Position numbers and translations under genes: made by a program
Shown here: one piece after another, positions 12,770-47,617 of the stretch
How positions within the stretch are numbered: the first letter of the stretch is position 1
Layout of the letters: the number at the start of each line of letters is the position of its first letter
NCBI GenBank assembly: GCA_021158055.1
Contig: JAGGVJ010000013.1
Location: 1 to 49,902, forward strand
Direction of reading: 5' to 3'
Source of the DNA: Candidatus Iainarchaeum sp.
GTDB taxonomy: Archaea > Iainarchaeota > Iainarchaeia > JAGGVJ01
DNA length: 49,902 nucleotides
The notes under the pieces: generated by a model
The model's input: the letters and a program-made list of their open reading frames with translations, nothing else
Told to the model about the DNA's origin: nothing
Databases searched by the model: none

Positions 12770-13423
12770 TTAAAATTTTCTGCTGCGTTTTTCTTCCCAC
12801 CCTGCAGGGTCTTCAATCCAGTCCATTACCTGTTCCTGTTCGTCTGATGAAAGGTAATTGTTTTCAACTGCAACTTTTAAGAGTTCAGGCAGGTTTGAAA
12901 GGCAGTTCAGTTTGATGTTGTTTTCTTCAAACGCGGTTTTTGAAGATTCAAAACCATAGCTGAAAATTGCTTTGCAGTTGTTTACGATTCCGCCTTCTTC
13001 TCGGATTGCGTTTGCGACATTTATTGAGCTTCCTCCCGTGCTTATCAAGTCTTCAACCACGACCACTCTTTGGCCTTTTTCAATTTTTCCTTCAATCAGG
13101 TTTTTTTTACCGTGTTCTTTCTTTTTTGCGCGCACGTAAATCATCGGAAGGTCAAGGCGCTCTGCGATAAAAGCCGCGTGAGGTATTCCTGCGGTGGCTG
13201 TTCCCGCCAGAAGGTCAACATTGTCAAGGCCTATTTTTTTTTCAAGAACTTCAACAAAACAGTCAACAACCAGTTTTCGTTTTATAGTGTCTGAAATCAG
13301 GATCCGGCAGTCAGTGTAAATCGGGCTTAATATTCCGGAACTGTACCTGAAAGGCTCGGTTGTATTGATGGAAACAGCTTTTAAATCAAGTAATGCTTTT
13401 GCAACAACGCTGCTAAACTCCAT
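12770..13423 (-). CDS. pyrE: Orotate phosphoribosyltransferase
   Basis: SGILSPIYTDCR, GTATAGIPHA, YVR..KEHG and VVEDLISTGGS motifs. Confidence 0.95.
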   Translation of the reverse strand: MEFSSVVAKALLDLKAVSINTTEPFRYSSGILSPIYTDCRILISDTIKRKLVVDCFVEVLEKKIGLDNVDLLAGTATAGIPHAAFIAERLDLPMIYVRAKKKEHGKKNLIEGKIEKGQRVVVVEDLISTGGSSINVANAIREEGGIVNNCKAIFSYGFESSKTAFEENNIKLNCLSNLPELLKVAVENNYLSSDEQEQVMDWIEDPAGWEEKRSRKF

Positions 13424-13767: not shown

Positions 13768-14685
13768 ATGCCAAATCTTGAAACCGCTTTCTTGAATAAG
13801 ACTTTTTCAAATCCGACTGTTTTGTCATCCGGGATACTTGGAGTTTATGGTTCTTCCCTTGTAAGGGTTGCAATTGAGGGGGCAGGGGCGGTTACCTCGA
13901 AATCAATAAGCCTCAACTACCGGAGCGGGCACCCAAACCCGATAATTGTTGAGTTTGAAGCCGGTTTGATAAACGCGGTCGGGCTTTCGACACACGGGAT
14001 CGACGATTCGATTTCTGAAATTTCTTACGCAGTAAAAAATTCCCCAAGCCCGGTAATTGCAAGCGTTTTTGCAGACAACGTGGAAAACTTTGCGCTTGTG
14101 TCGCAAAGAATAAACGAGGCAAACCCTGATTTTATTGAAGTGAACATATCGTGCCCGAACGTGGAATCAGAGTTTGGAAAGCCCTTTGCAACCGACCCAA
14201 AAACTTCGGCCGCAGTTACTTCGGCAGTCAAAAAAGTTTCAAAAGCGCCGGTAATAGTTAAGCTTTCGCCAAACGTGCCGAACATAAAACTCATTGCAAA
14301 AAGCGTTGTTGACGCAGGCGCTGACGCAATATGTGCGATAAACACGGTTGGGCCGGGCATGGTGATTGACATAGAAAGCGCCAAACCGATTTTAAGCAAC
14401 AAAGTCGGAGGCGTGTCAGGGCCGGCGATAAAGCCTGTTGCGGTCCGGTGTGTCTATGACATTTTTTCCGAAGTTGACGTTCCCATAATCGGTGTCGGCG
14501 GAGTTACAAACGGAAGCGACGCAATTGAAATGATTTTTGCAGGGGCAACGGCTGTGGGAATCGGAAGTGCCGTGCACTATCGGGGGATAGGCGTGTTCAA
14601 AAAGGTGTCAAAGGAAATTTTCCGATTCATGGACACCCACGATTATTCATCAATTGAAGAAATGAGGGGACTTGCACATGAATGA
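13768..14685 (+). CDS. pyrD: Dihydroorotate dehydrogenase (family 1B) catalytic subunit
   Basis: NAVGL, EVNISCPNV, VKLSPN, AINT, GGVSG..IKP and IGVGG motifs. Confidence 0.96.
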   Translation: MPNLETAFLNKTFSNPTVLSSGILGVYGSSLVRVAIEGAGAVTSKSISLNYRSGHPNPIIVEFEAGLINAVGLSTHGIDDSISEISYAVKNSPSPVIASVFADNVENFALVSQRINEANPDFIEVNISCPNVESEFGKPFATDPKTSAAVTSAVKKVSKAPVIVKLSPNVPNIKLIAKSVVDAGADAICAINTVGPGMVIDIESAKPILSNKVGGVSGPAIKPVAVRCVYDIFSEVDVPIIGVGGVTNGSDAIEMIFAGATAVGIGSAVHYRGIGVFKKVSKEIFRFMDTHDYSSIEEMRGLAHE

Positions 14686-15547
14686 AGGCGCGCAGAATTC
14701 AGGGAGGCTCAACAAGCCGATTACCCTTCCGATTGTCAAAGTGGTGGATGAGGCAAAAGATTTCAAATCTTTTTATTTTGATTTTGACCTGGACGCAAAA
14801 CCAGGGCAGTTTGTGACTGTGTGGATTCCCGGAGTAAACGAAAAACCGTTTGCGGTTTCAGGCCAGAAAGACGGGCTGTTTTCAGTTACTGTTTCTGCAG
14901 TCGGGCCGTTTACAAACAAAATGCACGAACTCAAAGAAGGGGATAAGGTCGGAGTGAAAGGGCCTTACGGGACCCACTACAAAATTTCCGGGCCAGACTG
15001 TGACGGAACCGGAGCTGAACACAAAAACCTTGTTCTGGTCGCAGGGGGGTATGGGGTTGCTCCACTTGTGTTTCTTGCAGAAGAGGCGGTCGGAAAAGGA
15101 GTTCAGACAACAATGATTGCGGGAACGCGGACAAAAGAACTTTTGGCATTCCGGGAAAAACTTGAAAGCATTGGCGTTGAGTACCTGGCTGCAACCGATG
15201 ACGGTTCAGAAGGGTTTCACGGTTTTGTGACAGACGTGCTTGAAAACCAGATAAGCCAGGGCAAAGCAAGCGAAATCTGTGCCTGCGGCCCCAGACCGAT
15301 GCTTGAGCGGGTGGGGGCAATCGCTGAAAAGCACAATTTGCCGGGCCAGTTTGGTCTTGAAAGTTACATGAAGTGCGGTTTCGGGATATGCGGGGAATGC
15401 GCTGTTGACTATAAAGGGATTCACATATGCAAAGACGGCCCGGTTTTTCCGCTTGCAACCGCTATGAAAATTTTTCGCTTCAAAAAAGAAAATGACAATT
15501 TTTCTCAGGACAATACAGATGACAAAAGTGAAAAAGAGGTGTTTTAA
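14678..15547 (+). CDS. pyrK: Dihydroorotate dehydrogenase electron-transfer subunit
   Basis: PGQF, GPYG, AGGYGVAP, TDDGS, ACGP and the 2Fe-2S motif MKCGFGICGEC...CKDGPVF; overlaps the pyrD end. Confidence 0.95.
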   Translation: MNEGAQNSGRLNKPITLPIVKVVDEAKDFKSFYFDFDLDAKPGQFVTVWIPGVNEKPFAVSGQKDGLFSVTVSAVGPFTNKMHELKEGDKVGVKGPYGTHYKISGPDCDGTGAEHKNLVLVAGGYGVAPLVFLAEEAVGKGVQTTMIAGTRTKELLAFREKLESIGVEYLAATDDGSEGFHGFVTDVLENQISQGKASEICACGPRPMLERVGAIAEKHNLPGQFGLESYMKCGFGICGECAVDYKGIHICKDGPVFPLATAMKIFRFKKENDNFSQDNTDDKSEKEVF

Positions 15548-16908
15548 TGAGTCTTGCAATCCTTGGCTGTTCCATTGTTGAAAACCAGCGTCTGGTTGAA
15601 AAAAACGTTTTTGTAAGGGAAGGAAAAATTTATGAAATAACCCCTTCTTCAGACATTTCAAACAAAAGGGACTTTGACATAATCATTGACGGTAGAAAAA
15701 AAGTTTTGCTGCCGGGAGTAATTGACGCACACGTGCATTTTCGCGTTCCTGGAGGGGAGCACAAGGAAGACTGGACAACGGGTTCTTGCGCGGCGGCGTC
15801 CGGGGGAGTGACTACTGTTCTTGACATGCCGAACACGTCTCCCCCGACAACAACTGTTGACAGGCTCAATGAAAAGCGGATCATTGCTTCAAACAAAAGC
15901 ATCATTGACTTTGGGTTTCACTTTGGGGCGGAATTCGGCAACGCCAACGAGATAGAGAAAGCCAGAAACATTGCGTCAATTAAAATATTCATGGGTTCGT
16001 CAACAGGAAACCTGCTGATTGACGACGATGCGGAACTTTATTCAATATTTGAACTCGCAGAAAAACATGACTTGCTTTGCACTGTTCACGCGGAAAACGA
16101 GCGGCTCATAAAACTGTTTTCAGACCAGGCAAAATTCAATGGGAAAACTTCACCCACAATACACCCTCTTATCAGGAACAATTTATGCGCGGCGGAAGCG
16201 GTTTCAAAAGCAGAGCTTTTTTCAAGGTTTGTGGGAAACAGGCTTCACGTCTGCCACGTCAGCACAAAAGAAGAGCTTGACTTCATAAAACTTGGAAAAA
16301 AATTGCAAAGAGAAGGCAGGCTTTCAGCCGAGGCAACCATGCACCATTTGCTGTTGTCGAGCGCAGCAATGCTGAAATCAGGGAACTATGCCAAGATGAA
16401 TCCTCCTCTTCGCTCCAAGGAAGACATAAGCGCGCTTTGGTCAAGCCTGAGAGAAGGCGTGATTGACATTATCGCGTCTGATCACGCCCCGCACACGCGC
16501 GAGGAAAAAGATAAGCCGTACTGGCAGGCGCCTGCAGGGGTTCCGGGAGTGGAAACAAACTTGCCGCTTCTTTTAAACGAGGTGAACAGGAAAACTTTGT
16601 CTTTTGAAGACCTCATAAATTTTACAAGCAAAAACCCTGCGAAAATATACAGGATAAAAAACAAGGGTGAGATGAAGAGAGGTTATGACGCTGACTTTGC
16701 ACTGGTTGACATGGACATTGAACAGATACTTTCAAGCTCAAATGTAAAAACAAAATGCGGATGGACTCCCTTCAACGGCATCACAGTCCAGGGTGCGGTT
16801 GAAAAAACGATTGTGCGGGGAAAAATAGTGTTTGACAAGGGAGAGTTCTTTTTGAACAAGGGAAAAGAAGTTGAATTCACGCGCAGCACAACATCTGAAA
16901 CAGAGTGA
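15547..16908 (+). CDS. pyrC: Dihydroorotase
   Basis: DAHVHFR.PG, GGVTTVLDMPNT, HVCHVST, KMNPPLR and SDHAPH motifs; lies in the pyr cluster. Confidence 0.93.
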   Translation: MSLAILGCSIVENQRLVEKNVFVREGKIYEITPSSDISNKRDFDIIIDGRKKVLLPGVIDAHVHFRVPGGEHKEDWTTGSCAAASGGVTTVLDMPNTSPPTTTVDRLNEKRIIASNKSIIDFGFHFGAEFGNANEIEKARNIASIKIFMGSSTGNLLIDDDAELYSIFELAEKHDLLCTVHAENERLIKLFSDQAKFNGKTSPTIHPLIRNNLCAAEAVSKAELFSRFVGNRLHVCHVSTKEELDFIKLGKKLQREGRLSAEATMHHLLLSSAAMLKSGNYAKMNPPLRSKEDISALWSSLREGVIDIIASDHAPHTREEKDKPYWQAPAGVPGVETNLPLLLNEVNRKTLSFEDLINFTSKNPAKIYRIKNKGEMKRGYDADFALVDMDIEQILSSSNVKTKCGWTPFNGITVQGAVEKTIVRGKIVFDKGEFFLNKGKEVEFTRSTTSETE

Positions 16909-16937
16909 CTGTTAAATAGTGTTTTTGGGGGATTGAA

Positions 16938-18695
16938 ATGAACAAAAATTTTGCTGACAGGCTGATTGAAGCAATAGAAAAAAAAGAAAACCCGACGGTT
17001 GTCGGGCTGGACCCGTGGTTTAAGGATATACCTGAGTCCCTTAAAAAAGAGACATTTCTCAAGTTTGGCGATTCGTTTGAGTCAGTGGGAAAATGCATTC
17101 TTGAATTCAACACCCGGATAATAGACGCGGTCTGTGAGACTGTTCCGGCAGTAAAACTGCAGATGGCGGCTTACGAGCAATACCTGGAGCCGGGAATAAA
17201 CGCCTTCAGACAAACAACGGATTACGCAAGGAAAAAAGGACTTGTGGTTTTTGAAGACGGCAAAAGAAATGACATCGGTTCAACTGCTCAGGCATACGCT
17301 GACGGGCACATCGGAGAAGTTGCTCTTTTTGAAAAAAGTTCCGTTGCTTTCGGCGTCGACGCGATAACTGTCAGCCCCTACCTCGGGTCTGACGGGATAA
17401 GACCTTTTATTGAAAATTGTTCAAGATACGGCAACGGGATTTTTGTTCTCGTAAAGACATCAAACCCTTCAAGCAGTGAAGTCCAGGATCTTGAATGCAG
17501 TGCAGGCAACAAAAAGATATATGAAGTCATGGCTGAAATGGTAAATGAATGGGGCAAAGAAGCAATAGGGGAAACCGGTTACAGCAGCGTAGGTGCGGTT
17601 GTCGGTGCCACGTATCCGGAGGAAGCCGCAAAGTTAAGAAAGCTGATGCCGAATTCAATATTTTTGGTTCCCGGCTACGGCGCCCAAGGCGGGGGCGCAA
17701 AAGACGTTGTTCCGTGCTTTAACCCTGACGGCAGGGGTGCAATCGTAAACTCGTCCCGCGGGGTTATTTTCGCATACAAGAAATCAGGAGACCAGGAAGA
17801 ATTTGCAGGCGCTGCAAAAAATGAGGTGCTTGCTATGCAGGAAAATTTAAACAAGGCACTTTCTGAAAACGGAATTCCGGTGGGCAAAAAAACAACCACT
17901 CACCAAAGCGGTTCCGGTTCCGGTTTAGGCTCTGAACAAGATGAAAACAAAGTTTTTACCGGTGAAAAGATCGCTGAAGGAAAAACAAAAACAGTTTTTG
18001 AAGACGCAAAAGACGAAAACGCTGTTCTTCTTTTTTTCAGGGACGACATAACAGCAGGCGACGGTGCCAAGCATGATATCATGGGAGGAAAAGGAAAACT
18101 CAACTGGGAGACAACAACTGAAGTGTTCAGGTTTCTTGAGTCAAAAGGCATTGCGACTCACTTTATCTCGTCCCCGAAACAATGTTATCTCAAGGCAAAA
18201 AAAGTGGAGATGATCCCGATTGAATGCGTTGCAAGAAGGCTTGCATACGGGTCCCTTCTGAAACGCCTGCCGTTTGAGAAAAAGCACAGGTTTGAAGTCC
18301 CGCTGGTTGAATTCTTTTTCAAGGACGATGAAAAAAACGATCCGATGGTAACAGACCAGCACATCCGGACGCTTGCAATCGCAGGCGCTGACGAGGTAAA
18401 CCAGATGCGCGAGATCACAAGAAAAGTATTTGAACTGCTTGAGGAAAAATTCACGGAAAAAGGCTCTACTCTTGTGGACATGAAAATAGAGTTCGGAAGG
18501 GCAAAAGACGGTTCGCTTCTTGTTGCAGACGAAATAACCGGCGACAGCTGGAGGCTCTGGGAAGGAGGCGAAGAGTCAAAAATGATGGATAAGCAGATTT
18601 ACAGAAACGGCGCTTCTATGCAGGATGTTAAAAGCGGTTACGAAAAAACCCTTGACACGATAAGGCGGTTTGATGATCCCCAGCAAAAAGAATGA
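16938..18695 (+). CDS. pyrF-purC: Bifunctional OMP decarboxylase (PyrF) / SAICAR synthetase (PurC) fusion
   Basis: aa 1-~315: VGLDP, DGKRNDIGST, TVSPYLG, VKTSN, GAVVGAT, LVPGYGAQGG, NSSRG. Then a GS linker. aa ~342-585: EGKTK, DDITAGDG, IPIECVAR, EFFFKDD, LVDMKIEFG, ADEITGDSWRLW, DKQ.YR. Confidence 0.93.
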   Translation: MNKNFADRLIEAIEKKENPTVVGLDPWFKDIPESLKKETFLKFGDSFESVGKCILEFNTRIIDAVCETVPAVKLQMAAYEQYLEPGINAFRQTTDYARKKGLVVFEDGKRNDIGSTAQAYADGHIGEVALFEKSSVAFGVDAITVSPYLGSDGIRPFIENCSRYGNGIFVLVKTSNPSSSEVQDLECSAGNKKIYEVMAEMVNEWGKEAIGETGYSSVGAVVGATYPEEAAKLRKLMPNSIFLVPGYGAQGGGAKDVVPCFNPDGRGAIVNSSRGVIFAYKKSGDQEEFAGAAKNEVLAMQENLNKALSENGIPVGKKTTTHQSGSGSGLGSEQDENKVFTGEKIAEGKTKTVFEDAKDENAVLLFFRDDITAGDGAKHDIMGGKGKLNWETTTEVFRFLESKGIATHFISSPKQCYLKAKKVEMIPIECVARRLAYGSLLKRLPFEKKHRFEVPLVEFFFKDDEKNDPMVTDQHIRTLAIAGADEVNQMREITRKVFELLEEKFTEKGSTLVDMKIEFGRAKDGSLLVADEITGDSWRLWEGGEESKMMDKQIYRNGASMQDVKSGYEKTLDTIRRFDDPQQKE

Positions 18696-20091
18696 GTCTG
18701 CAACTGACGGCCTTATTCACCCGATTGATTACCGCTACCTTGTTCCCGAACTGGTCGGCTTTTTGTCAAACCAGGCAACCCTTGCGTACCGGCTGAAAGT
18801 CGAAGCAGCACACGCGCGGGCTTTTGCGCGTTTTGGCTTGTGTTCAAAGGAAGTTGCAGAGGAGATAACAAAAAAAGCAACCACCGAGTTTGTGTCGTCA
18901 AAAGAAGTCGATGAAAAAGAGCGCGAACTGAAGCATGACATAAGGGCGATGGTTGAAGTTCTCGGGGCGCAGCTCAGCGAAGAGGCAAAGCCGTTTCGGC
19001 ACCTGGGCATGACTTCGTTTGATGTTGTGAACACCGCGCAGACCCTTGCAATAAAGGACTGCACAAAAAAAGCAGTGATTCCGGCTCTTGTAGCACTTGA
19101 AAAAACGCTTATTAAAATTGCGCGAAGGGAAAAAGAAACAGTTCAGATCGGAAGGACGCATGGGCAACACGCAGAACCGATCACTTTCGGTTTTTATATC
19201 TCAAACTTTGTTGACAGGTTCGGGCGCGGGATGCTGAACATAAACAACGCGTCTGAAGCGCTTACCGGGAAAGTTGCGGGAGCTGTCGGAACAAAAGCAC
19301 CGTTTGCGCTTTTTGAAGCAGATGCTGACGCGCTTGAAAAAGCAGTGCTTGATGAGCTCGGGCTCAAACCGGCACCGGTCAGCACCCAGATAGTTCCGGG
19401 TGAAGAGCTTGCAAACTATTTTTCCCAGGTGACAATTTGCTTTGCAACTCTTGCAGACCTTGCAAATGACATGCGCAATCTGCAAAGGACAGAGATAGCT
19501 GAAGTTTTTGAAGGGTTTTCAGACAAGCAGGTCGGCTCTTCAACAATGCCCCAGAAGAGAAATCCGATAAGCTGGGAGAATATAATCAGCCAGTTCAAGG
19601 CAGTCAAGCCCCATATAATCAGCGTTTACGACGATATAATTTCAGAGCACCAGCGCGACCTGACAAACTCGGCGTCTGCAAAGTACTATATTCCTGAATT
19701 CATAAACGCTTTTGTGTACTCTGTCAAGAGGGCGACTTCTGTTCTTGAAAAGCTTGAAATTGACCGTGAATCGATGAAGAGAAATTTTGACTCGAACAAA
19801 GGGTTTGTGCTTGCAGAACCGCTTTATATACTCCTTGCGAAAAATGGCCATCCGGATGCGCATGAGTTTGTGCGAAGAATTGTGGTTTTTGCCCGCGAGA
19901 ACAACTTGTCTTTTACTGAAGCGCTTGCGGAAAACAGCGAATCAAGGCAGTTTATTGACAGTTTGCCTGAAAAGCACCGCGCCATTTTTTCCAGCCCGCA
20001 GAAATACGTCGGGGTGTCAGTTGAAAAGACAGAGGAGATTGCTTTGTTTTGGGAAAGCAGATTAGCCGGTTTGAACAAGGAGTTATTTTGA
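18670..20091 (+). CDS. purB: Adenylosuccinate lyase
   Basis: HPIDYRY, HDI, HLGMTSFD, GRTHGQHA, the SSTMPQKRNP signature loop and HQRDLTNS. Confidence 0.96.
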   Translation: MMIPSKKNESATDGLIHPIDYRYLVPELVGFLSNQATLAYRLKVEAAHARAFARFGLCSKEVAEEITKKATTEFVSSKEVDEKERELKHDIRAMVEVLGAQLSEEAKPFRHLGMTSFDVVNTAQTLAIKDCTKKAVIPALVALEKTLIKIARREKETVQIGRTHGQHAEPITFGFYISNFVDRFGRGMLNINNASEALTGKVAGAVGTKAPFALFEADADALEKAVLDELGLKPAPVSTQIVPGEELANYFSQVTICFATLADLANDMRNLQRTEIAEVFEGFSDKQVGSSTMPQKRNPISWENIISQFKAVKPHIISVYDDIISEHQRDLTNSASAKYYIPEFINAFVYSVKRATSVLEKLEIDRESMKRNFDSNKGFVLAEPLYILLAKNGHPDAHEFVRRIVVFARENNLSFTEALAENSESRQFIDSLPEKHRAIFSSPQKYVGVSVEKTEEIALFWESRLAGLNKELF

Positions 20092-20190
20092 AGAAACAGT
20101 CAGTTTGAAGAAACAGTCAGTTTGAAGAAACAGTCAGTTTGAAGAAACAGTCAGTTTGAAGAAACAGTCAGTTTGAAGAAACAGTCAGTT
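20087..20190. repeat. Perfect 17-bp tandem repeat x6 (VNTR-like)
   Basis: tttgaagaaacagtcag at 20087, 20104, 20121, 20138, 20155 and 20172, with no spacers. The first copy contains the purB TGA stop. Confidence 0.98.
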
Positions 20191-20257
20191 ATGTTTTTTA
20201 GCTTGTTTGTTGCTTTGGATATACTCTGAATAATAAAAGGTTTAAAGGGGGGTTTTT

Positions 20258-20704
20258 TTGAAGGTATTAGTTGCAATGGGAAGCAAGTCTGACCGGAAGA
20301 TTCTTGACAAGGCCGTGAAAATTCTTGACGAGTTTGAAATTCCGTATGAATTTGAATTGGTTTCGTCCCACAGGACACCTGACAAGGTTGACGTTGTCGC
20401 TGAAAGAATAGAGAAAGAGTTTGATGTCTGCATTGCAATCGCAGGGCTTTCAGCGGCTCTTCCCGGAGACATTGCCGCAAGAACCACGAAGCCGGTTATC
20501 GGATGCCCGGTGGATGTAAAGCTTGGCGGGCTTGACGCGTTGTATTCGATTGTGCAGATGCCTCCCGGAACCCCGCTTGCATGCGTCGGAATAGACCGCG
20601 GGGAAAACGCAGCCCTTTTAGCGGCTTCAATTCTTTCGATAAGCAACATGCAAGTCAGGCAAAAAATACTTGAGTACAGGAAAAAAAGGCGCGAAGAATA
20701 CTAA
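20258..20704 (+). CDS. purE: N5-CAIR mutase / AIR carboxylase
   Basis: MGSKSD, SSHRTP, AGLSAALPG, PVIGCP, GLDAL.SIVQMPPG.P and NAA motifs; TTG start. Confidence 0.95.
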   Translation: MKVLVAMGSKSDRKILDKAVKILDEFEIPYEFELVSSHRTPDKVDVVAERIEKEFDVCIAIAGLSAALPGDIAARTTKPVIGCPVDVKLGGLDALYSIVQMPPGTPLACVGIDRGENAALLAASILSISNMQVRQKILEYRKKRREEY

Positions 20705-33669: not shown

Positions 33670-33729
33670 GAAAATACACACTTAAGTTTCAAAGAAACAT
33701 TAATTAAATCATTAATACTTTTCATGTTT

Positions 33730-34287
33730 ATGGACTCAAAAGCAGTTTCGCCGGTTATTTCCACGACAATGATGGTTCTTCTAATGGTGATAATTGTTGC
33801 TTCCATGTACTCGTGGTCAGGCGGCATCTTAAAGGAAATGCAGGACGCTGCAACCATCGGTCAGGCAAGGTCTTCGCTGACTTCAATGGATCTTGCGATA
33901 AAAGGAGTTGTAAGAAGCAACGTGGGTTCTGTCCGTGTTGTTGAAGGGACTTTGATTGAAGGGACTGATTTTGACGCGGCAAACAATTCAATCACTTACT
34001 CGCTTCTTTCACCCCAAAAGTTTTTCCCGCATATCGCATTGGCAGACAGTAACATGACGATAAACGACAACAGGTTTGGAGTAGTGCTTATAAGATTCAA
34101 TGAAAAAAGCAACATATACGTTGGTTCCATGCCCATGGGCGGAAGTTACCTTAATGTTATCCAAATAAAATACACCAATGTTGATCTGCAGCTGGGCGGA
34201 AGCTGGGCAACCCATTCGCAAAGACAGATCTTTAGAAAAACAGGTTACAGCGGAAACACAATAATCGTTGAAGGTGAAGCAAGTTGA
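33730..34287 (+). CDS. Archaeal type IV pilin-like protein
   Basis: Class III signal peptide MDSKA/VSPVISTTMMVLLMVIIV, directly downstream of the Tad genes. Confidence 0.85.
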   Translation: MDSKAVSPVISTTMMVLLMVIIVASMYSWSGGILKEMQDAATIGQARSSLTSMDLAIKGVVRSNVGSVRVVEGTLIEGTDFDAANNSITYSLLSPQKFFPHIALADSNMTINDNRFGVVLIRFNEKSNIYVGSMPMGGSYLNVIQIKYTNVDLQLGGSWATHSQRQIFRKTGYSGNTIIVEGEAS

Positions 34288-35390
34288 GCCAGACGTTTTC
34301 AATGATTTTGACTACGCTTATCGGTTTGGGTTTATTTATAAGTGTTTATGGCATGTTCACAGTTATCGGCGAAGATCTTTACAAGCCCTCAAGAGTAGTT
34401 TCTGCAAAAGAACTTTCAGATTACGTTTCCTCAACAATCCGGTTTGTTTTGTCGTCAATGAACGCCAATGACAGATACCTTGGAAAGCATTACTCAAACG
34501 CAAACCCGGTTCTGGCACCGAAAATAGCGTTTTATTGTTACACGAGTGATTGCAGCACTTTGAAAAGCCGTTTTGATGATGAAGACTTAAATTACACTTG
34601 TTTTAACGGTTTCGGAGTTGACAGTGCAGAAAACAGGCCGGTGCTGACGCCTTTAATAAATGACCTTTCAGGCTATGACGTGGTTGTTCTTGAAGACCCG
34701 TATATTTCCTTGACCACATTGACTACTGACAGCAAAGTGATTTCAGATGAACTTGACAATTTCCTGTCAGGCGGCGGATCTCTTATTGCTTCCGGACACG
34801 GCGACTACATTGAGAAATTCGGTTTCAGCTACACTGACGGGGGTTCAAACACAGGCGATCTGGAATGCACAGTTGAACTCCGTGAAAAAAATATGGCATT
34901 GTTTCCGGGAGTGATTGTGATTCCTTCAACAATACCTTTTGTGTCTTCAACTGCGACTATCGCGTCTTATAATTCTTTTTCAGGCGACTGCGTTTCCGGT
35001 GTTGAACACGCGGGAGGGGGAAAAGTATATTATTTTTCTGATTTCGTGACGAAAAACAATGTAGATCTTGAGGGGAGTGCTGCGTTGCTTTTGAAATCAT
35101 GGCATCCTCCGCTGCAGGGCAATGTTCCGAATATGGTTGTTTTTTTGCACCCGCCTTACAAGATAATGGATAGCCAGTATGTTGTTGAAGGTTCATGCGA
35201 TGATTCGGGAACAAGCTGGATTGTCATTCGCGATGCAAGAGAAAACGTGCTGTCAAGAACAAGAACAAGCGTGAACTGCGTTGATTCATTTTTGTCAGGG
35301 AAAGTTTTTGCATCAGAGGACACCGGGATTGGGTTTTACAGAAGCGGGAATTACCTGTACGTGGAAGTGGCAAACTATGAAAGAGAATGA
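34284..35390 (+). CDS. Pilus-locus membrane-anchored protein with a DUF4350/GATase-like domain
   Basis: N-terminal TM helix; YDVVVLEDP...ELDNFLSGGGSLIASG and GGGKVYYFSD motifs; TTG start overlapping the previous stop. Confidence 0.65.
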   Translation: MSQTFSMILTTLIGLGLFISVYGMFTVIGEDLYKPSRVVSAKELSDYVSSTIRFVLSSMNANDRYLGKHYSNANPVLAPKIAFYCYTSDCSTLKSRFDDEDLNYTCFNGFGVDSAENRPVLTPLINDLSGYDVVVLEDPYISLTTLTTDSKVISDELDNFLSGGGSLIASGHGDYIEKFGFSYTDGGSNTGDLECTVELREKNMALFPGVIVIPSTIPFVSSTATIASYNSFSGDCVSGVEHAGGGKVYYFSDFVTKNNVDLEGSAALLLKSWHPPLQGNVPNMVVFLHPPYKIMDSQYVVEGSCDDSGTSWIVIRDARENVLSRTRTSVNCVDSFLSGKVFASEDTGIGFYRSGNYLYVEVANYERE

Positions 35391-35916
35391 CTTTGCAGGA
35401 AAAACAAAAAAGCCAAGTGTTGTTGCAAGGGGTTTTTCAACGTTTACTCTTGACGGAATAGCTGCTCTTGCTATATCTATTACAGCTGTTGTGCTTATCG
35501 TTGTTTTTTTGCTTGGTTATGTGCCGACCAATACGGTCACTGAAAAAGTATACCTGCAGTCTTACGCGGATTTTGCTTCAAAGACCCTTGTCGAGTCGCC
35601 TGGTGTCCCTTCAAACTGGGAATCGTTAAGCAGTGTTTCAGTAATTGGCTTGGCAGATTGTTTGGCACCGCGGGTTTTTAGCACTTCAAAATCAAATGCG
35701 CTTGCTCTTTTAACGCAGCAGCAGGTGAAAGACGCAATGCAGGTCGGGGACCTGAATGTAAATTTGAGAATAACTGTTACAAACGATTCAAATGCTTCTT
35801 TCGTGCTTGTTGAAACGCCTTCAGACACGCCTCCAAAGTCAGCCCGCGAGTCCAATCGTTTCATGGTTAATTCCGGCAACGAGCTGATAAGGGTAAAAGT
35901 GCAGGTTTGGGGATGA
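35377..35916 (+). CDS. Pilin-like protein (class III signal peptide)
   Basis: Charged leader then ARG/FSTFTLDGIAALAISI...; LVESPGVPSNWE and IGLA motifs, recalled from archaeal pilus-locus proteins. Confidence 0.75.
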   Translation: MKENDFAGKTKKPSVVARGFSTFTLDGIAALAISITAVVLIVVFLLGYVPTNTVTEKVYLQSYADFASKTLVESPGVPSNWESLSSVSVIGLADCLAPRVFSTSKSNALALLTQQQVKDAMQVGDLNVNLRITVTNDSNASFVLVETPSDTPPKSARESNRFMVNSGNELIRVKVQVWG

Positions 35917-35992
35917 TTGGTAAATGAATATATTATTGAAATTGATAAAGGAATGCATCATTAAACTGCAGGCAGGTATTGCAAGAGGTCGA

Positions 35993-36064
35993 TCCTGATA
36001 TGGGTTTGCGTAACGGTCCTGATATGATTTCACGCAACGGTTCTGGCAGGGTTTCGCGTAACAG
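35993..36064 (+). repeat. Degenerate 24-bp x3 repeat in the pilin leader
   Basis: tcctgatatgggtttgcgtaacgg / tcctgatatgatttcacgcaacgg / ttctggcagggtttcgcgtaacag. Confidence 0.8.
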
Positions 36065-36515
36065 GGGTTTTATGATCACTGTTGAAGCCGTGCTTGCGAT
36101 GGTGATAATGTTTTCGTTTTTTTACATTGTTGCAGGCCAGTACAATTCGCAGACGTCAACCGAAGTCGGAGTGAAGTTCCTTGAGCATTACAACAACGAG
36201 ATACTTGACCTTGCACTGAACAACAGGCTTTTCCAGCAGGAGCTTGACGAGGACACCCCGGATTACAGCGCGTTTGAAGCGCACACGGGCTTAATGCTTC
36301 CCCCGGGAATCAGCTATCGTTTTTTTGTGGAAAAAGACAGCGTGAAAACATGCATAATGCCCGCCGGCTGCACTTCAGAAAACATCGACAGGAACTCAAC
36401 AGTCGTTACAGGTTCAAGGTATGCTTATGCCGTCAGTTTTTCCGATGGCCTTAATCCCCCGAAAAAGAGAGAGTATAAATTGAGTTCAGAAGTGTGGTTT
36501 GATTATGAATTGTGA
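36000..36515 (+). CDS. Pilin-like protein (class III signal peptide)
   Basis: NRG/FMITVEAVLAMVIMF cleavage motif followed by a hydrophobic helix; ATG 36000 follows GAGGT. Confidence 0.78.
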   Translation: MGLRNGPDMISRNGSGRVSRNRGFMITVEAVLAMVIMFSFFYIVAGQYNSQTSTEVGVKFLEHYNNEILDLALNNRLFQQELDEDTPDYSAFEAHTGLMLPPGISYRFFVEKDSVKTCIMPAGCTSENIDRNSTVVTGSRYAYAVSFSDGLNPPKKREYKLSSEVWFDYEL

Positions 36516-36643
36516 ATGCGGTCGTGAAGGTTGCAGTATCATTTATCAATTTGTTTATATGTGGAAATATTATTTCTTATGTTGTGTCATTGCAGGAAGT
36601 TGAAAAAAATTATGGGTTGCAAAGAGCCACAGGTGATCATGTC

Positions 36644-38473
36644 ATGAAAAAAATGAAAAAAGGGCAGTTTTACATTGCAATGGCTGTATTTGTTGTCATG
36701 ATAATCGCGGTATTTTTTACCCACCTGTATTCCCTGAATAGTCTCGGCTCAAAAAAAACCATGCAGCCGGCTCAACTCGGGGACGAGGTGGCAGTTTATT
36801 CAAATATAAAGTCGCAGGTTGCGTCCCTTATTGACAATTCGTTTATTGATGAAAACAGCTCTTACAACGCACCGGACCTGGCCGGGTTTTTCAGCGACCT
36901 GGAAACTGATTTTGCAAGGCGGGGCATTGATTTCAATTATTCCTACATGGTTGACTCAAATGCTTCATCGATTGTCAGTTCAAAGATAGCAACAAGGATT
37001 TCTTCAGACGATGTTTTTTTTCACGACGAGTTTTATCTTACCCAGGCAAAAACGAAGATAGAAACCATGATATTTGCAAGGTTTTCCGGAATGCAGTATT
37101 ATGTTGCAACTTTCAAGGAATCCAAAAACGACAGGTTCGTAATATACAATCCCACAGAAAAAGACGCTAACATCAGTATTGAGTTCAAGGACGTCACAGT
37201 TGAAAACACTCTTCCCCCAAAGACAACCTGGGAGCTTTTTGCAGATGATGGCCTGAATTACAGGGACGGTTCAAAGATTGAGATAACCGGTTTTGCACTC
37301 GTGTACTTTTCACGTGAAAACGGGACGGCGGCCCCGCCAATGGACATAAGCACCACAAATTACATTGCTTTTGCTTCAAGCGGCGAATCTGACAGGCTTT
37401 ATATATTCAACCCGTCACGCACACAAGACGCCAATGCCACCATTAATTTTTGCGATGACGGTTCCTGCATCACCCAGAACATATCAATCGGCAAGTTTGA
37501 AACAGAAGAAGTGGATGTTCCAAGCATCGGGGGAGTGGAGATTATATCTGATATAGGGCTTTCTGTAATGTACGGCATTCTTTCAGGTGACGGGGTGGGG
37601 ATTGACAGTGCTGTTTTTGAACCGCAGACTGAATATTTTGCACCATACAGCAAGGTAGGAAGAGCAGTAAAATTAAGGTATTATAATCCAAGTGATACCC
37701 AAAGCGCGACTGTGAACATTTATTACAACGGGAGTTCAACCGCGAAAGTATTGAATCTCGGCCCGAATGATTTCGGATATCCCTCCACCCCGCCGGGTGC
37801 GAAAGGGGGTGCCCACATAGTTTCAGATGAGCCGATATTTGTGACTGCAAGGACAGCGGGGGAATCGGAAGCGGCTTGGTTGCAATGGTTTTTGAAGTCA
37901 GAGTACTGGTTTCCAAAGTTTGAGGACAGCAACGATGCATTGATGTTCTATAACCCCAACAATTCAGATGTGACTGTGAATGTTTTGTTTGACGATCCGC
38001 TTGCAACCGACTGGGTATATGAACTGGAAGCTTACGAATTTAAGGAACTTGGAGCTGACGGAAACTATTTCGGACCCGGCTCTATCACTTCAAGCGAAGA
38101 TCTGGTCGTGTTCCAGTATTCGGGAGGGGTTGGGGTTGGAAAGGGGCTTCAGGTGCCTATAGTCTGGCTTCCGTCACTTGCTGATATGTGCGACACGTGG
38201 ATAATGCGCTACGACATAAAACTGACGAACATGGTTACCGGGGCAGGTCTTGACGATGCCTGGATGGCTGTTGAGTTCATTGACGGCGAAACTGTCATCC
38301 ACACATCCACCACAGGAAACGGGGAAATCGTGGACATTGGAGACGGCCTTTACTCCAAGCTGCAATGGGTATGCATGCCGTCCAATAACCCAATAGATAT
38401 CAGGGTATTTGCATCTCTTCCGGGTCACGTTGACATATACAACCTGCAGGAAGGAGTAATTCCTTCTGAGTAA
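36644..38473 (+). CDS. Large pilin-like protein / putative pilus adhesin with four internal repeats
   Basis: MKKMKKG/QFYIAMAVFVVMII class III signal after an AGGTGAT SD; four (Y/F)NP..(A/V)x(I/V)x(I/V) beta-rich repeats spaced 87-92 aa. Confidence 0.8.
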   Translation: MKKMKKGQFYIAMAVFVVMIIAVFFTHLYSLNSLGSKKTMQPAQLGDEVAVYSNIKSQVASLIDNSFIDENSSYNAPDLAGFFSDLETDFARRGIDFNYSYMVDSNASSIVSSKIATRISSDDVFFHDEFYLTQAKTKIETMIFARFSGMQYYVATFKESKNDRFVIYNPTEKDANISIEFKDVTVENTLPPKTTWELFADDGLNYRDGSKIEITGFALVYFSRENGTAAPPMDISTTNYIAFASSGESDRLYIFNPSRTQDANATINFCDDGSCITQNISIGKFETEEVDVPSIGGVEIISDIGLSVMYGILSGDGVGIDSAVFEPQTEYFAPYSKVGRAVKLRYYNPSDTQSATVNIYYNGSSTAKVLNLGPNDFGYPSTPPGAKGGAHIVSDEPIFVTARTAGESEAAWLQWFLKSEYWFPKFEDSNDALMFYNPNNSDVTVNVLFDDPLATDWVYELEAYEFKELGADGNYFGPGSITSSEDLVVFQYSGGVGVGKGLQVPIVWLPSLADMCDTWIMRYDIKLTNMVTGAGLDDAWMAVEFIDGETVIHTSTTGNGEIVDIGDGLYSKLQWVCMPSNNPIDIRVFASLPGHVDIYNLQEGVIPSE

Positions 38474-45937: not shown

Positions 45938-46848
45938 CTATATAAGATTCAGATTTTGAAGGACTTCATCCATTGCTCTTTTTGTGCTGTCGGTAACGTC
46001 AACAAGCGGCAGCCTCGGAGTGCCTGCCGGAATTCCTATTCTTCTTAATGCATAATGCGCGGGCGAAGGATTGGTTTCAAGGAACAGTGCATTGTAAAGC
46101 CCGCGAAGCTTTTCGTCAATCGCTTCTGCTTCGTCAAATTTTTTTTCAAGCGCAAGATGTGTGACATCGCTTGTCCTTTTCGGGGCAATGTTGGCAGCAA
46201 CAGAAATGACTCCCGTGCCTCCTGCTTTTATCATCTCGAGCGTGAGCCCGTCGTCGCCGGATGTTACCGAGAAAGGCATGTCTGAAGTGTTGTCAATGAT
46301 GGTTTTTATCTGCTCCATGTTTCCGGACGCCTCTTTTATCCCTATGATATTTGAAAATTCACGCGCAAGCCTGATTGTGGTTTCTGCCTCTATGTTTTTT
46401 GCGGTTCTTCCCGGAACGTTGTAGAGGATGATTTTTCCGTTCTATGCTGTCTGCAATTGCGGCATAGTGCCGGTAAAGACCTTCCTGGGTCGGCTTGTTT
46501 TGGTAAGGGCTTATCTTGAGGTGTGTCGTGATCCCAAGGTCTTCAATTTTTTTTTGCAGCGTCGATCGCTTCGCGCGTGCAGTTTGACCCGTCCCTTGTG
46601 ATTACAGAGACTTTGCCTGAAACGTGCTCAAGCGAGTTTTTTATGAGGCTTGTCTGCTCTTCCCATGTAAGGGTGCATGAGTGCCCGGTGCAGCCGGCAA
46701 TGAGTATCCCGTCAACCCCGCCTTTTATGACGTGGTCTATCAGCATGTTCATCGCTTCCTGGTTCACGGGATTGTCAATCGCGTTTCCCGTGTCCTTGAT
46801 GGGTGTTACGAGTGCAGGGTAACAGCCCGAAATGTTTTTTGCTGTCAT
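45938..46848 (-). pseudogene. dapA: 4-hydroxy-tetrahydrodipicolinate synthase, split by two +1 frameshifts
   Basis: Removing one A from the A9 run (46547-46555) and one A at 46440-46441 restores ...[52 protein letters not shown]...IIGIKEASG..., joining ORFs 46543-46848 and 45938-46318. Confidence 0.88.
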
Positions 46849-46849
46849 A

Positions 46850-47617
46850 TCAATTGCCTCCGGTAATGTTTTTCACCATGTCGTCCAAAGTGAATATGCC
46901 TTTTTTTCCCGAGATCCATTCTGCAGCGGCAACAGCGCCTTGGGCGAATCCCACGCGGCTTTTCGCAGTGTGCTTTAATTCGATCGTGTCCGCGGAACTG
47001 TCAAAACCCACTGTGTGCGTGCCGCTTATTGTTCCCGCCCGCACGCTTGCCACGTGAAGCTCTTCGGGTTTTATTTTCCTTTCCAGCCTGTCGTACATCG
47101 CGGTTGTTTTTCTGTTTGTGTTGTTGATTATTATCTCGCCCAGTTTTCTGGCTGTTCCGGACGGGCTGTCAAGTTTTTGGCTGTGGTGGAATTCAACTAT
47201 AAAAGAGTCGTATGAGTCAAAATTGTTGATTTGTTTTGCGGCGTCTTCGACTATTTTGAAAAAGATGTTGACTCCGATTGAAAAATTAGGGGAGTATAGT
47301 AGTGCAGTGTTGTTTTTTTTAACAGCTTTTCTTGCTTCGTCCAGCCTGTTGTGCCAGCCTGTTGTACCCACAACAATGGATTTTTTGAGTCCGGCCGCTT
47401 TTTTTATGTTTTCTGTTGCTGCTGCTGGCTGCGTGAAATCTATGCAGACATCAACACCCGCGAGGCTTTCTTTGTTTATTTCGTTGAACTGGATGCCTTC
47501 TTTTTTGATGCGGGGGTCAATTATTGCCTTTACTGCGTGTCCTTTTTCAAGGGCTGTTTTTTCTATTTCCCTGCCCATTTTGCCGTAGCCGATTATGGCA
47601 ATGTTTAACAAAGGCAT
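46850..47617 (-). CDS. dapB: 4-hydroxy-tetrahydrodipicolinate reductase
   Basis: IGYGKMG, IDFT, VGTTG, PNFSIGVN, EFHHSQKLDSPSGTA and H.AKSR.GFA.GA motifs. Confidence 0.95.
   Translation of the reverse strand: MPLLNIAIIGYGKMGREIEKTALEKGHAVKAIIDPRIKKEGIQFNEINKESLAGVDVCIDFTQPAAATENIKKAAGLKKSIVVGTTGWHNRLDEARKAVKKNNTALLYSPNFSIGVNIFFKIVEDAAKQINNFDSYDSFIVEFHHSQKLDSPSGTARKLGEIIINNTNRKTTAMYDRLERKIKPEELHVASVRAGTISGTHTVGFDSSADTIELKHTAKSRVGFAQGAVAAAEWISGKKGIFTLDDMVKNITGGN

What the first reader, a model, noticed from the sequence alone, without database searches (positions are those of the whole stretch)
16938..18695. Cross-pathway fusion of OMP decarboxylase (PyrF) and SAICAR synthetase (PurC)
Seen: one uninterrupted 585-aa ORF with complete-looking catalytic motifs for both enzymes. 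They are joined by KKTTTHQSGSGSGLGSEQDENKVFT, partly encoded by ggttcc repeats. The linker has no in-frame ATG or SD; the ATG at 17941 is out of frame. The gene sits exactly at the junction of the pyr and pur blocks. Known: PyrF usually fuses with PyrE (UMP synthase) and PurC with PurE (PAICS); here PyrE and PurE are separate genes. I do not recall a described PyrF-PurC fusion. The two enzymes share no intermediate, so channelling cannot explain it. Inference: it fixes the purine:pyrimidine enzyme ratio, allows cross-regulation or nucleates a joint metabolon, or it is a recent stop-codon-loss fusion.
Basis: partly seen in the sequence, partly recalled or inferred. Interest (0 to 1): 0.8.

Follow-up and report, generated by a model that had tools for sequence, protein, structure and literature searches.

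The report
Natural PyrF–PurC fusion enzyme gene
A small archaeal genome makes one enzyme of pyrimidine synthesis and one of purine synthesis as a single protein joined by a floppy linker, a real and very rare arrangement that most likely arose when two neighbouring genes in a tightly packed operon merged.

Summary
Window 16938-18695 (+) is one 585-aa ORF. It has a complete type-2 OMP decarboxylase (aa 1-~312) and a complete SAICAR synthetase (aa ~342-585), joined by a ~25-aa low-confidence coil partly encoded by a 6-nt repeat.

It is not an assembly artefact. Three 585-aa homologues at 82-83% identity are also fused. Contigs from two independent cold-seep metagenomes (~95% nt identity) bridge the junction, and their only indel there is an in-frame 6-nt deletion. 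Both domains are conserved (85% and 83%), while the linker is not (35%).

The fused gene holds the genome's only PyrF and only PurC. It sits where a pyrD-pyrK-pyrC block meets purB-purE.

No other protein with both domains appeared among the 150 best hits of an exhaustive scan of 1.84 billion representatives. None was found in 214 genomes of the same class, or in the paper searches.

The same genome also carries PurF-PurD and PurS-PurL fusions. The best reading is therefore a fusion of adjacent genes in a compact DPANN archaeal genome, giving two independent catalytic domains on a tether. Functional coupling is untested. A Shine-Dalgarno-like site before in-frame M300 leaves open a separately translated PurC.

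The parts
16927..16931 (+). Shine-Dalgarno-like GGGGG, 6 nt before the ATG of the fused gene
   Evidence: Similar G-rich motifs precede pyrC, purE, pyrE, the CBS gene and other genes in the window.
16938..18695 (+). pyrF::purC fused ORF, 585 aa, TGA stop
   Evidence: It holds the only PF00215 and the only PF01259 match in the 94.9%-complete genome.
16938..17885 (+). Type-2 OMP decarboxylase (PyrF) domain, aa 1-316
   Evidence: TIGR02127 scores 277.8 bits. PDB 3r89_A matches at E 6.1e-41. All 23 invariant columns of a 72-sequence alignment are kept, including D25, K73 and D107-x-K109-x-x-D112. AlphaFold2 pLDDT is 90-99 over aa 1-310.
17823..17837 (+). Internal GAGGTG, then 6 nt, then in-frame ATG (M300); a possible secondary start that would give a 286-aa PurC-containing product
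   Evidence: the hexamer and spacing are the same as at the pyrC start. Against it: the cold-seep variants carry 17825 G>A, giving GAAGTG, and M300 is a nearly invariant PyrF residue.
17886..17960 (+). Interdomain linker, aa 317-341 (KKTTTHQSGSGSGLGSEQDENKVFT)
   Evidence: It is 8/23 identical to the sister lineage, against 269/316 and 202/243 for the two domains. It is modelled as coil with pLDDT about 28-52 in both AlphaFold2 runs. Neither family alignment has a homologous counterpart.
17909..17925 (+). Hexanucleotide repeat (CGGTTC unit, 2.8 copies) encoding GSGSG
   Evidence: The in-frame 6-nt deletion in the X3 and X4 contigs starts at its 3' end, at 17925.
17961..18692 (+). SAICAR synthetase (PurC) domain, aa 342-585
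   Evidence: Pfam SAICAR_synt scores 228.7 bits. PDB 2yzl_A matches at E 1.3e-56 and 4ja0_A at 5.2e-50. All 27 invariant columns of a 67-sequence alignment are kept. pLDDT is about 87-98 over aa 341-580, apart from one 10-residue block at 75.
12770..13423 (-). pyrE (orotate phosphoribosyltransferase), a separate gene
   Evidence: TIGR00336 scores 115.7 bits, above its 106.8 cut-off.
13768..16908 (+). pyrD (13768-14685), pyrK (14672-15547) and pyrC (15547-16908), directly upstream
   Evidence: Overlaps are 14 nt and 1 nt, with a 29-nt gap to the fused gene.
18673..20704 (+). purB (18673-20091) and purE (20258-20704), directly downstream
   Evidence: TIGR00928 scores 327.9 bits (cut-off 326.2) and TIGR01162 scores 174.9 bits (cut-off 149.6). 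purB overlaps the end of the fused gene by 23 nt.

Best explanation
The ORF is a genuine, translated bifunctional gene of a small-genome (DPANN-type) archaeon. It encodes a complete type-2 OMP decarboxylase and a complete SAICAR synthetase, tethered by a disordered linker of about 25 residues that evolves freely.

It most likely arose when pyrF, the last gene of a pyrD-pyrK-pyrC-pyrF block, and purC, the first gene of a purC-purB-purE block, lost the stop and spacer between them. These genes sit in an operon where neighbours already overlap. The former spacer, lengthened by slippage of a 6-nt repeat, became the linker.

Each domain then carries out its ordinary reaction: OMP to UMP plus CO2, and CAIR plus Asp plus ATP to SAICAR. 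The fusion adds only obligatory 1:1 co-expression. It is kept because it holds the only copy of both enzymes.

Shown: the fused frame, its conservation, the intact domains, the gene context and the rarity. Inferred: the origin by stop and spacer loss, the independence of the two domains, and translation as one chain.
For: Single ORF with both domains.

The fused frame recurs. P0002, P0318 and P0319 are 585 aa and 82-83% identical, on contigs of 2842, 9920 and 4329 nt. A 959-nt contig of run X3 and a 743-nt contig of run X4 come from two different studies. They show 48 and 41 base differences, and each bridges the junction. The only indel inside the ORF is a 6-nt deletion that removes codons 330-331. 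Applying the substitutions that one search lists (30 for X3, 39 for X4) creates no stop, and only 10 and 13 of them change a residue.

The conservation pattern fits two working domains and a free linker: PyrF 269/316, linker 8/23, PurC 202/243. All 23 and all 27 family-invariant residues are kept. There are strong matches to solved enzymes. Each domain is modelled with confidence and the linker as low-confidence coil.

This is the sole copy of each family in the genome. The genome otherwise encodes most of both pathways: PurF-PurD, PurS-PurL, PurQ, PurM, PurE, PurB, two PurP-like genes, PyrB-like genes, PyrC, PyrD/K and PyrE.

The operon is compact, with overlaps of 14, 1, 23 and 35 nt. In a relative, pyrC directly precedes pyrF (L034). 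Relatives of this PurC type sit next to purB or purE in 7 of the 12 PurC loci examined; the other 5 showed neither within the DNA held.

The same genome has two further fused genes, PurF-PurD (985 aa) and PurS-PurL (1001 aa). Among the 91 of 215 class genomes with PurD, only this one has it in a 993-aa frame. GC content is level across both halves.
Against: There is no RNA or protein evidence, because no RNA run was listed.

Only assembled contigs were laid on the window, not raw reads, so minority variants cannot be excluded. One search left 69 substitutions unlisted.

An in-frame ATG (M300) with a GAGGTG 6 nt upstream resembles real starts in this window. PurC could therefore also be made separately.

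The purC equivalog model falls just short of its cut-off (181.9 against 189.9 bits).

Nothing tested here shows that the domains do not interact; the docking job could not be run. I did not see DNA of the 82% sister lineage, so its gene order and the codon-level selection on its linker are unknown.
Confidence: 0.75

Rival explanations
1. The fusion is functionally coupled. The obligate PyrF dimer organises PurC into a defined assembly, or ligands of one domain regulate the other. Purine and pyrimidine output would then be balanced at the protein level, as a cross-pathway metabolon or allosteric module.
For: The fused state has persisted through 18% protein divergence and across several habitats. 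The gene carries the only copy of both enzymes. It lies inside one long nucleotide-synthesis gene row that also holds guaA.
Against: The linker varies in sequence and length (8/23 identical, with indels of 2 codons), as expected of a passive tether. The two reactions share no intermediate. The genome fuses other neighbouring pur genes too, and a related PurC is fused to PurF elsewhere (P0269). Adjacency alone therefore explains the fusion. No interface evidence was obtained.
Confidence: 0.1
2. It is one ORF but two proteins. Translation also, or mainly, starts at M300 (17835), behind the internal GAGGTG. This yields a free 286-aa PurC that carries the last PyrF helix and the linker as an N-terminal tail, alongside the full-length chain.
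For: GAGGTG, then 6 nt, then ATG is exactly the arrangement at the pyrC start. G-rich SD-like motifs precede many genes here. Of the 27 SD-like-plus-ATG sites in the window, about half by my own reading coincide with starts of genes or long ORFs.
Against: In both cold-seep variants the motif is weakened to GAAGTG by a synonymous change at 17825. M300 is nearly invariant in stand-alone PyrF proteins, so the ATG is there for PyrF reasons. About half of such motif-plus-ATG sites in the window are not gene starts. Even if the site is used, the full-length fusion would still be made from the first start.
Confidence: 0.12
3. It is an artefact. A sequencing or assembly indel removed a stop or shifted the frame between two separate genes.
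For: The same contig has a dapA gene broken over three frames at 45938-46872, so indel errors or pseudogenes do occur in it.
Against: The fused frame is found in four distinct protein sequences from several assemblies. It is also found in contigs of two independent metagenome studies, which differ at about 5% of bases yet keep the frame. Logan's own assembly of run X1 reproduces the stretch exactly, although X1 may be the source sample.
Confidence: 0.02

Closest known systems
UMP synthase (PyrE-PyrF fusion; NCBIfam NF004034 and eukaryotic UMPS)
   Same: An OMP decarboxylase domain is fused to a second nucleotide-synthesis enzyme in one chain. Prokaryotic PyrE-PyrF fusions of the same PyrF subtype turned up here (P0016, P0104, P0114, P0115 with PF00156+PF00215).
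   Different: The partner there catalyses the preceding step of the same pathway, so the intermediate OMP is shared. Here the partner belongs to the purine pathway, and pyrE is a separate gene on the other strand.
PAICS / PurC-PurE fusions
   Same: SAICAR synthetase is fused to another enzyme. This PurC half is of the same broad subtype: insect PAICS 4ja0_A matches at E 5.2e-50. Of the 51 longer PurC relatives, 35 carry PF00731.
   Different: PAICS joins consecutive purine steps. Here purE is a separate gene two genes downstream, and the fusion partner is PyrF.
PurC-PurF fusion (P0269, 732 aa, unnamed metagenome protein)
   Same: This is a related PurC (48% identity) fused to an enzyme that is not its pathway neighbour. 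PurF is step 1 and PurC is step 8 by the usual numbering, which I recall rather than tested. It shows that this PurC type tolerates fusion to whatever gene lies beside it.
   Different: Both partners are still purine enzymes, and PurC is N-terminal there but C-terminal here.
PurF-PurD and PurS-PurL fusions in the same genome
   Same: These are lineage-specific single ORFs that join neighbouring nucleotide-synthesis genes. The PurF-PurD frame is unique among the 91 class genomes with PurD.
   Different: Those join consecutive steps or subunits of one enzyme, so channelling or assembly could explain them. PyrF-PurC crosses pathways.

Membership tests
Orotidine-5'-phosphate decarboxylase, type 2 (TIGR02127 / PF00215) | Profile score above the curated cut-off over the full domain | tested here: met
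   TIGR02127 scores 277.8 bits against a 110.6 cut-off, aa 5-283 on profile positions 1-254 of 261. PF00215 scores 87.9 against 27.
Orotidine-5'-phosphate decarboxylase, type 2 (TIGR02127 / PF00215) | Catalytic Lys and Asp residues, including the D-x-K-x-x-D motif (their catalytic role is recalled from the literature, not tested) | tested here: met
   D25, K73, D107, K109 and D112 all lie in invariant columns of the 72-sequence alignment, and all 23 invariant columns are kept.
Orotidine-5'-phosphate decarboxylase, type 2 (TIGR02127 / PF00215) | Complete barrel fold | tested here: met
   PDB 3r89_A matches at E 6.1e-41 over aa 6-292. AlphaFold2 pLDDT is 90-99 over aa 1-310.
Orotidine-5'-phosphate decarboxylase, type 2 (TIGR02127 / PF00215) | OMP decarboxylase activity | not testable with these tools
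   Needs an enzyme assay or complementation of a pyrF mutant.
SAICAR synthetase (PF01259 / TIGR00081) | Pfam profile score above the cut-off | tested here: met
   PF01259 scores 228.7 bits against 20, on profile positions 1-231 of 233.
SAICAR synthetase (PF01259 / TIGR00081) | NCBIfam equivalog cut-off | tested here: inconclusive
   TIGR00081 scores 181.9 bits against a 189.9 cut-off. The related PurC of P0269 also scores below it, at 160.9.
SAICAR synthetase (PF01259 / TIGR00081) | Family-invariant residues and fold | tested here: met
   All 27 invariant columns of the 67-sequence alignment are kept. PDB 2yzl_A matches at E 1.3e-56. pLDDT is about 87-98 over aa 341-580, apart from one 10-residue block at 75.
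SAICAR synthetase (PF01259 / TIGR00081) | SAICAR synthetase activity | not testable with these tools
   Needs an enzyme assay or complementation of a purC mutant.
UMP synthase (PyrE-PyrF) | A phosphoribosyltransferase domain in the same chain as OMPdecase | tested here: not met
   The ORF has no PF00156 match. pyrE is a separate gene at 12770-13423 (-).
PAICS (PurC-PurE) | An AIR carboxylase or mutase (PF00731) domain in the same chain as SAICAR_synt | tested here: not met
   The ORF has no PF00731 match. purE is a separate gene at 20258-20704.

The most novel reading that the evidence does not exclude
The fused protein is a true cross-pathway device. The PyrF dimer scaffolds two PurC domains, and ligand binding in one domain tunes the other. 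A minimal archaeon would then balance purine against pyrimidine synthesis within a single polypeptide. That would be the first natural covalent link between the two de novo pathways.
Probability: 0.1. Interest if true: 0.65.

Novelty: new variant of a known kind. Interest (0 to 1): 0.4.

Why it matters
Gene fusions are widely used to infer functional links between proteins (the 'Rosetta stone' logic). A conserved fusion of two enzymes from different pathways that share no intermediate is either a clean counter-example or a hint of unrecognised purine-pyrimidine coordination.

There is also a practical point. The one named record in this clade is labelled only 'orotidine-5'-phosphate decarboxylase'. 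If annotation is read by product name alone, purC could be scored as missing in these small archaeal genomes and their biosynthetic independence underestimated (my inference; no pathway caller was run). One vent study reports that its DPANN genomes likely lack de novo purine and pyrimidine synthesis (PMC8091004, passages seen). This genome has most of both pathways.

With three fused nucleotide genes, the lineage is also a small natural experiment in how compact genomes merge operon neighbours.

Tried and rejected
- **Docking of the two domains (complex prediction, A2 + A3).** The queue was full every time, so the job never ran. There is no result on whether the domains touch.
- **RNA evidence.** No RNA holder was listed.
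- **ESM Atlas.** No usable hit.
- **Mixed alignment A4** (fused proteins plus PyrF plus PurC homologues). The PurC rows were misplaced on the PyrF half (12-18% identity), so I discarded it. I used two alignments, A5 and A6, instead. Each AlphaFold2 run therefore models only one half well, and neither says anything about contacts between the domains.
- **Collection scans with the whole protein.** Genome contigs gave 9 loci, all matching the PurC part only. Metagenome contigs gave 5 loci, 1 PyrF-only and 4 PurC-only. No further fused locus appeared and I obtained no DNA of the 82% sister lineage.
- **Phylum-level search.** It returned the same 215 genomes as the class search and added nothing.
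- **Bacterial-type promoter and terminator scan.** Counts were close to those of shuffled sequence, and the organism is an archaeon, so it was uninformative.
- **Rfam.** Only tRNA-Ala.
- **Careful PyrF tree.** It did not finish in two 300-s runs, so only the quick tree is reported. The PurC tree is a FastTree with warnings about long branches.
- **CO2 link (considered and rejected).** I considered whether CO2 released by PyrF could feed an AIR carboxylase that makes PurC's substrate. The purE here matches the N5-CAIR mutase model TIGR01162 above its cut-off. By my recollection that type does not use CO2 directly.
Full report
**What is there.** One search lists a single ORF at 16938..18695 (+). 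It is 585 aa, starts at ATG and ends at TGA. A GGGGG motif sits 6 nt before the start.

Pfam places OMPdecase at aa 60-281 (87.9 bits) and SAICAR_synt at aa 344-573 (228.7 bits). NCBIfam names the N-terminal half as type-2 PyrF: TIGR02127 scores 277.8 bits against a cut-off of 110.6. The C-terminal half is PurC: TIGR00081 scores 181.9 bits, just under its 189.9 cut-off.

Between the two lies ...KKTTTHQSGSGSGLGSEQDENKVFT.... Part of it is encoded by a 6-nt unit repeated 2.8 times at 17909-17925. One omission: 17 codons before the linker there is an in-frame ATG (M300, 17835) with GAGGTG 6 nt upstream.

**Are both halves intact?** The PyrF half matches the solved enzyme 3r89_A at E 6.1e-41. The PurC half matches 2yzl_A at 1.3e-56 and the insect PurC-PurE enzyme 4ja0_A at 5.2e-50.

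- In a 72-sequence PyrF alignment, the protein keeps all 23 invariant residues. These include D25, K73 and D107-G-K109-R-N-D112. Their catalytic role is my recollection of the literature.
- In a 67-sequence PurC alignment, it keeps all 27 invariant residues.
- Two AlphaFold2 runs used an alignment deep for one half only. They gave pLDDT 90-99 for aa 1-310 and about 87-98 for aa 341-580, apart from one 10-residue block at 75. In both runs the stretch between the domains is coil with pLDDT about 28-52.
- These runs say nothing about contacts between the domains.

**Is the fusion real?** Yes.

- The 5.8-billion-protein collection holds three further 585-aa proteins, 82-83% identical to this one. 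They lie on contigs of 2842, 9920 and 4329 nt. One is an NCBI record labelled only 'orotidine-5'-phosphate decarboxylase [Candidatus Diapherotrites archaeon]'.
- Against them, the PyrF part is 269/316 identical, the PurC part 202/243, and the linker only 8/23 with a 2-residue length difference. That is the pattern of two constrained domains and a free tether.
- I laid Logan contigs of four runs on 16900-18750. Run X1, possibly the source sample, reproduces the stretch exactly in a 5300-nt contig.
- A 959-nt contig of X3 and a 743-nt contig of X4 come from cold-seep metagenomes of two different studies. They show 48 and 41 base differences, and each bridges the junction.
- The only indels reported are a 1-nt insertion behind 16931, before the start codon, and a 6-nt deletion at 17925.
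- That deletion removes exactly codons 330-331 (Leu-Gly), right at the end of the hexanucleotide repeat.
- I applied the substitutions that one search lists (30 for X3, 39 for X4; 69 further ones were not shown). They create no stop and change only 10 and 13 residues.
- Run X5 covers only pieces on either side and does not bridge the junction.
- These are contigs, not reads, so minority variants cannot be excluded.

**How rare is it?**

- An exhaustive HMMER pass over 1,835,955,588 representative proteins gave 10,213 hits at E<=0.001. Among the 150 best, only the query's own cluster matched over aa 1-585. The runner-up (368 bits) matched aa 3-308 only.
- I also searched for proteins of 321-1024 aa similar to the PurC part. 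Of 51 such proteins, 2 carry PF00215+PF01259 (this protein and P0002). A further 35 are PurC-PurE, 1 is PurC-PurF (P0269) and 13 show PurC alone.
- The nearest stand-alone PyrF is about 60% identical and the nearest stand-alone PurC at most 52%.
- The collection holds 215 genomes of the same class, which is also the whole phylum. PurC is found in 81 and type-2 PyrF in 48.
- Only this genome has them in one open frame (591 aa). All other frames are at most 395 aa for PurC and at most 363 aa for PyrF.
- By my reading of those two tables, 30 other genomes have both genes. In 27 they lie on different contigs. In 3 they lie on one contig, 58-98 kb apart.
- Scans of genome contigs and metagenome contigs found no further fused locus.
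- Five paper searches (listings only) found nothing on such a fusion.
- A survey of archaeal fusions (PMC11237513) does not mention orotidine, SAICAR, pyrF, purC or purine in its main text. Its held supplementary files, one of them cut when stored, list SAICAR_synt fused only with the PurE family.
- Limits: a fusion built from distant subtypes of the two domains could rank below the 150 rows shown. It could also share no words with the query. I could not query InterPro.

**Context.** The genome (G000) is 1.15 Mb in 45 contigs and 94.9% complete. None of its 30 nearest held relatives is closer than the same class. The window's genes are archaeal in character: ATP-dependent DNA ligase, PilB/T2SSF, FtsZ and a PF04008 protein.

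The fused gene holds the genome's only PF00215 and only PF01259 match.

Upstream lie pyrE (- strand), then pyrD, pyrK and pyrC. Downstream lie purB, purE, a PF04008 gene, an AlaX-like gene and guaA. Neighbours overlap by 14, 1, 23 and 35 nt. The gap before the fused gene is 29 nt.

Elsewhere the genome encodes the following:
- PurF-PurD as one 985-aa ORF
- PurS-PurL as one 1001-aa ORF
- PurQ and PurM
- two PurP-like genes
- two OTCase-fold genes

PurH, PurO and PurN families were not found. Only a weak ATP-grasp match stood in for CarB. In a 95%-complete genome that does not show absence. Both pathways therefore look largely present, and both halves of the fusion are needed.

**Origin (inference).**

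- In a relative (L034), pyrC directly precedes pyrF. Relatives of this PurC type lie next to purB or purE in 7 of the 12 PurC loci examined; the other 5 showed neither within the DNA held. The window thus looks like a pyr block ending in pyrF joined to a pur block beginning with purC.
- Stand-alone PyrF proteins end near aa 316. Stand-alone PurC proteins begin near aa 337 (consensus lines). About 20 residues are homologous to neither, roughly the size of an intergenic spacer plus repeat expansion.
- A quick PyrF tree puts the fused pair (support 100) inside a 78-row clade of roughly 320-aa PyrFs. That clade holds proteins labelled Thermoplasmatota, Halanaerobiales, Peregrinibacteria and Nanoarchaeia, plus four members of its own class. 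It is apart from a 9-row clade of the class's roughly 290-aa PyrFs.
- A FastTree of PurC likewise puts the fused pair (support 99) with PAICS-like and Chloroflexi-like PurCs. It stands apart from all 11 class PurCs sampled, which are only 23-28% identical.
- Both trees are rough: midpoint rooted, with no bootstrap and with long-branch warnings. They suggest that this lineage's nucleotide genes differ in type from those of most of its class.
- GC content is level across the two halves.

**Mechanism.** The simplest account is two independent catalytic domains on a flexible tether, produced by fusion of operon neighbours and retained because the gene is indispensable. Supporting it:

- The same genome has two more fused pur genes.
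- The PurF-PurD frame is unique among the 91 class genomes with PurD.
- A related PurC is fused to PurF in another organism.

A functional coupling between the pathways remains possible but has no positive evidence. The domain-docking job could not be queued. A second open point is whether M300 serves as an internal start. The motif matches the pyrC start. However, it is weakened in the cold-seep variants (17825 G>A), and M300 is a conserved PyrF residue.

**Verdict.** It is a real, conserved, very rare domain architecture, most likely an adjacency-driven fusion. It is a new variant among bifunctional nucleotide-synthesis enzymes and of moderate interest.

Noticed in passing
G000 contig C33, L040:2677-5637 (-): A 985-aa ORF joins amidophosphoribosyltransferase (PurF: GATase_6/7 + Pribosyltran) to GAR synthetase (PurD: GARS_N/A/C). 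Among the 91 of 215 class genomes with PurD, only this genome has it in a frame this long (993 aa; the others are 297-781).
   Followed up: partly
G000 contig C40, L041:1381-4386 (+): A 1001-aa ORF joins PurS to PurL (PurS + FGAR-AT linker + AIRS/AIRS_C). It is followed by separate PurQ (290 aa) and PurM (391 aa) genes.
   Followed up: partly
window 45938-46872 (-): The dihydrodipicolinate synthase (dapA) gene appears broken over three reading frames, at 46543-46872, 46359-46601 and 45938-46441. Only the C-terminal 125-aa piece matches PF00701 positions 177-288. It is either a pseudogene or indel errors in the contig.
   Followed up: partly
G038:C51:3082-4680 (+): In a relative, the GARS_A domain of PurD is split into profile positions 1-125 and 124-194, about 1 kb apart, inside one 780-aa open frame. 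This may be an inserted element such as an intein.
   Followed up: no
proteins P0003 (530 aa), P0020 (412 aa), P0057 (397 aa): These database PyrF proteins contain long, near-exact internal repeats of their own sequence. They look like tandem duplications or assembly artefacts, not fusions.
   Followed up: no
G000:C36:24220-25985 (-): Two adjacent PurP-like (PF06973) genes lie in frames of 362 and 406 aa. PurH, PurO and PurN families were not found in the genome.
   Followed up: no
window 33724-38473 (+): Five consecutive ORFs (187, 368, 211, 178 and 653 aa) downstream of a PilB-like ATPase and two T2SSF genes have no Pfam match at E<=1e-5. They may be the structural genes of an archaeal pilus or surface appendage.
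   Followed up: no
window 16931/16932: Both cold-seep variants (X3, X4) carry one extra A directly after the GGGGG motif. This lengthens the spacer before the start codon of the fused gene.
   Followed up: no
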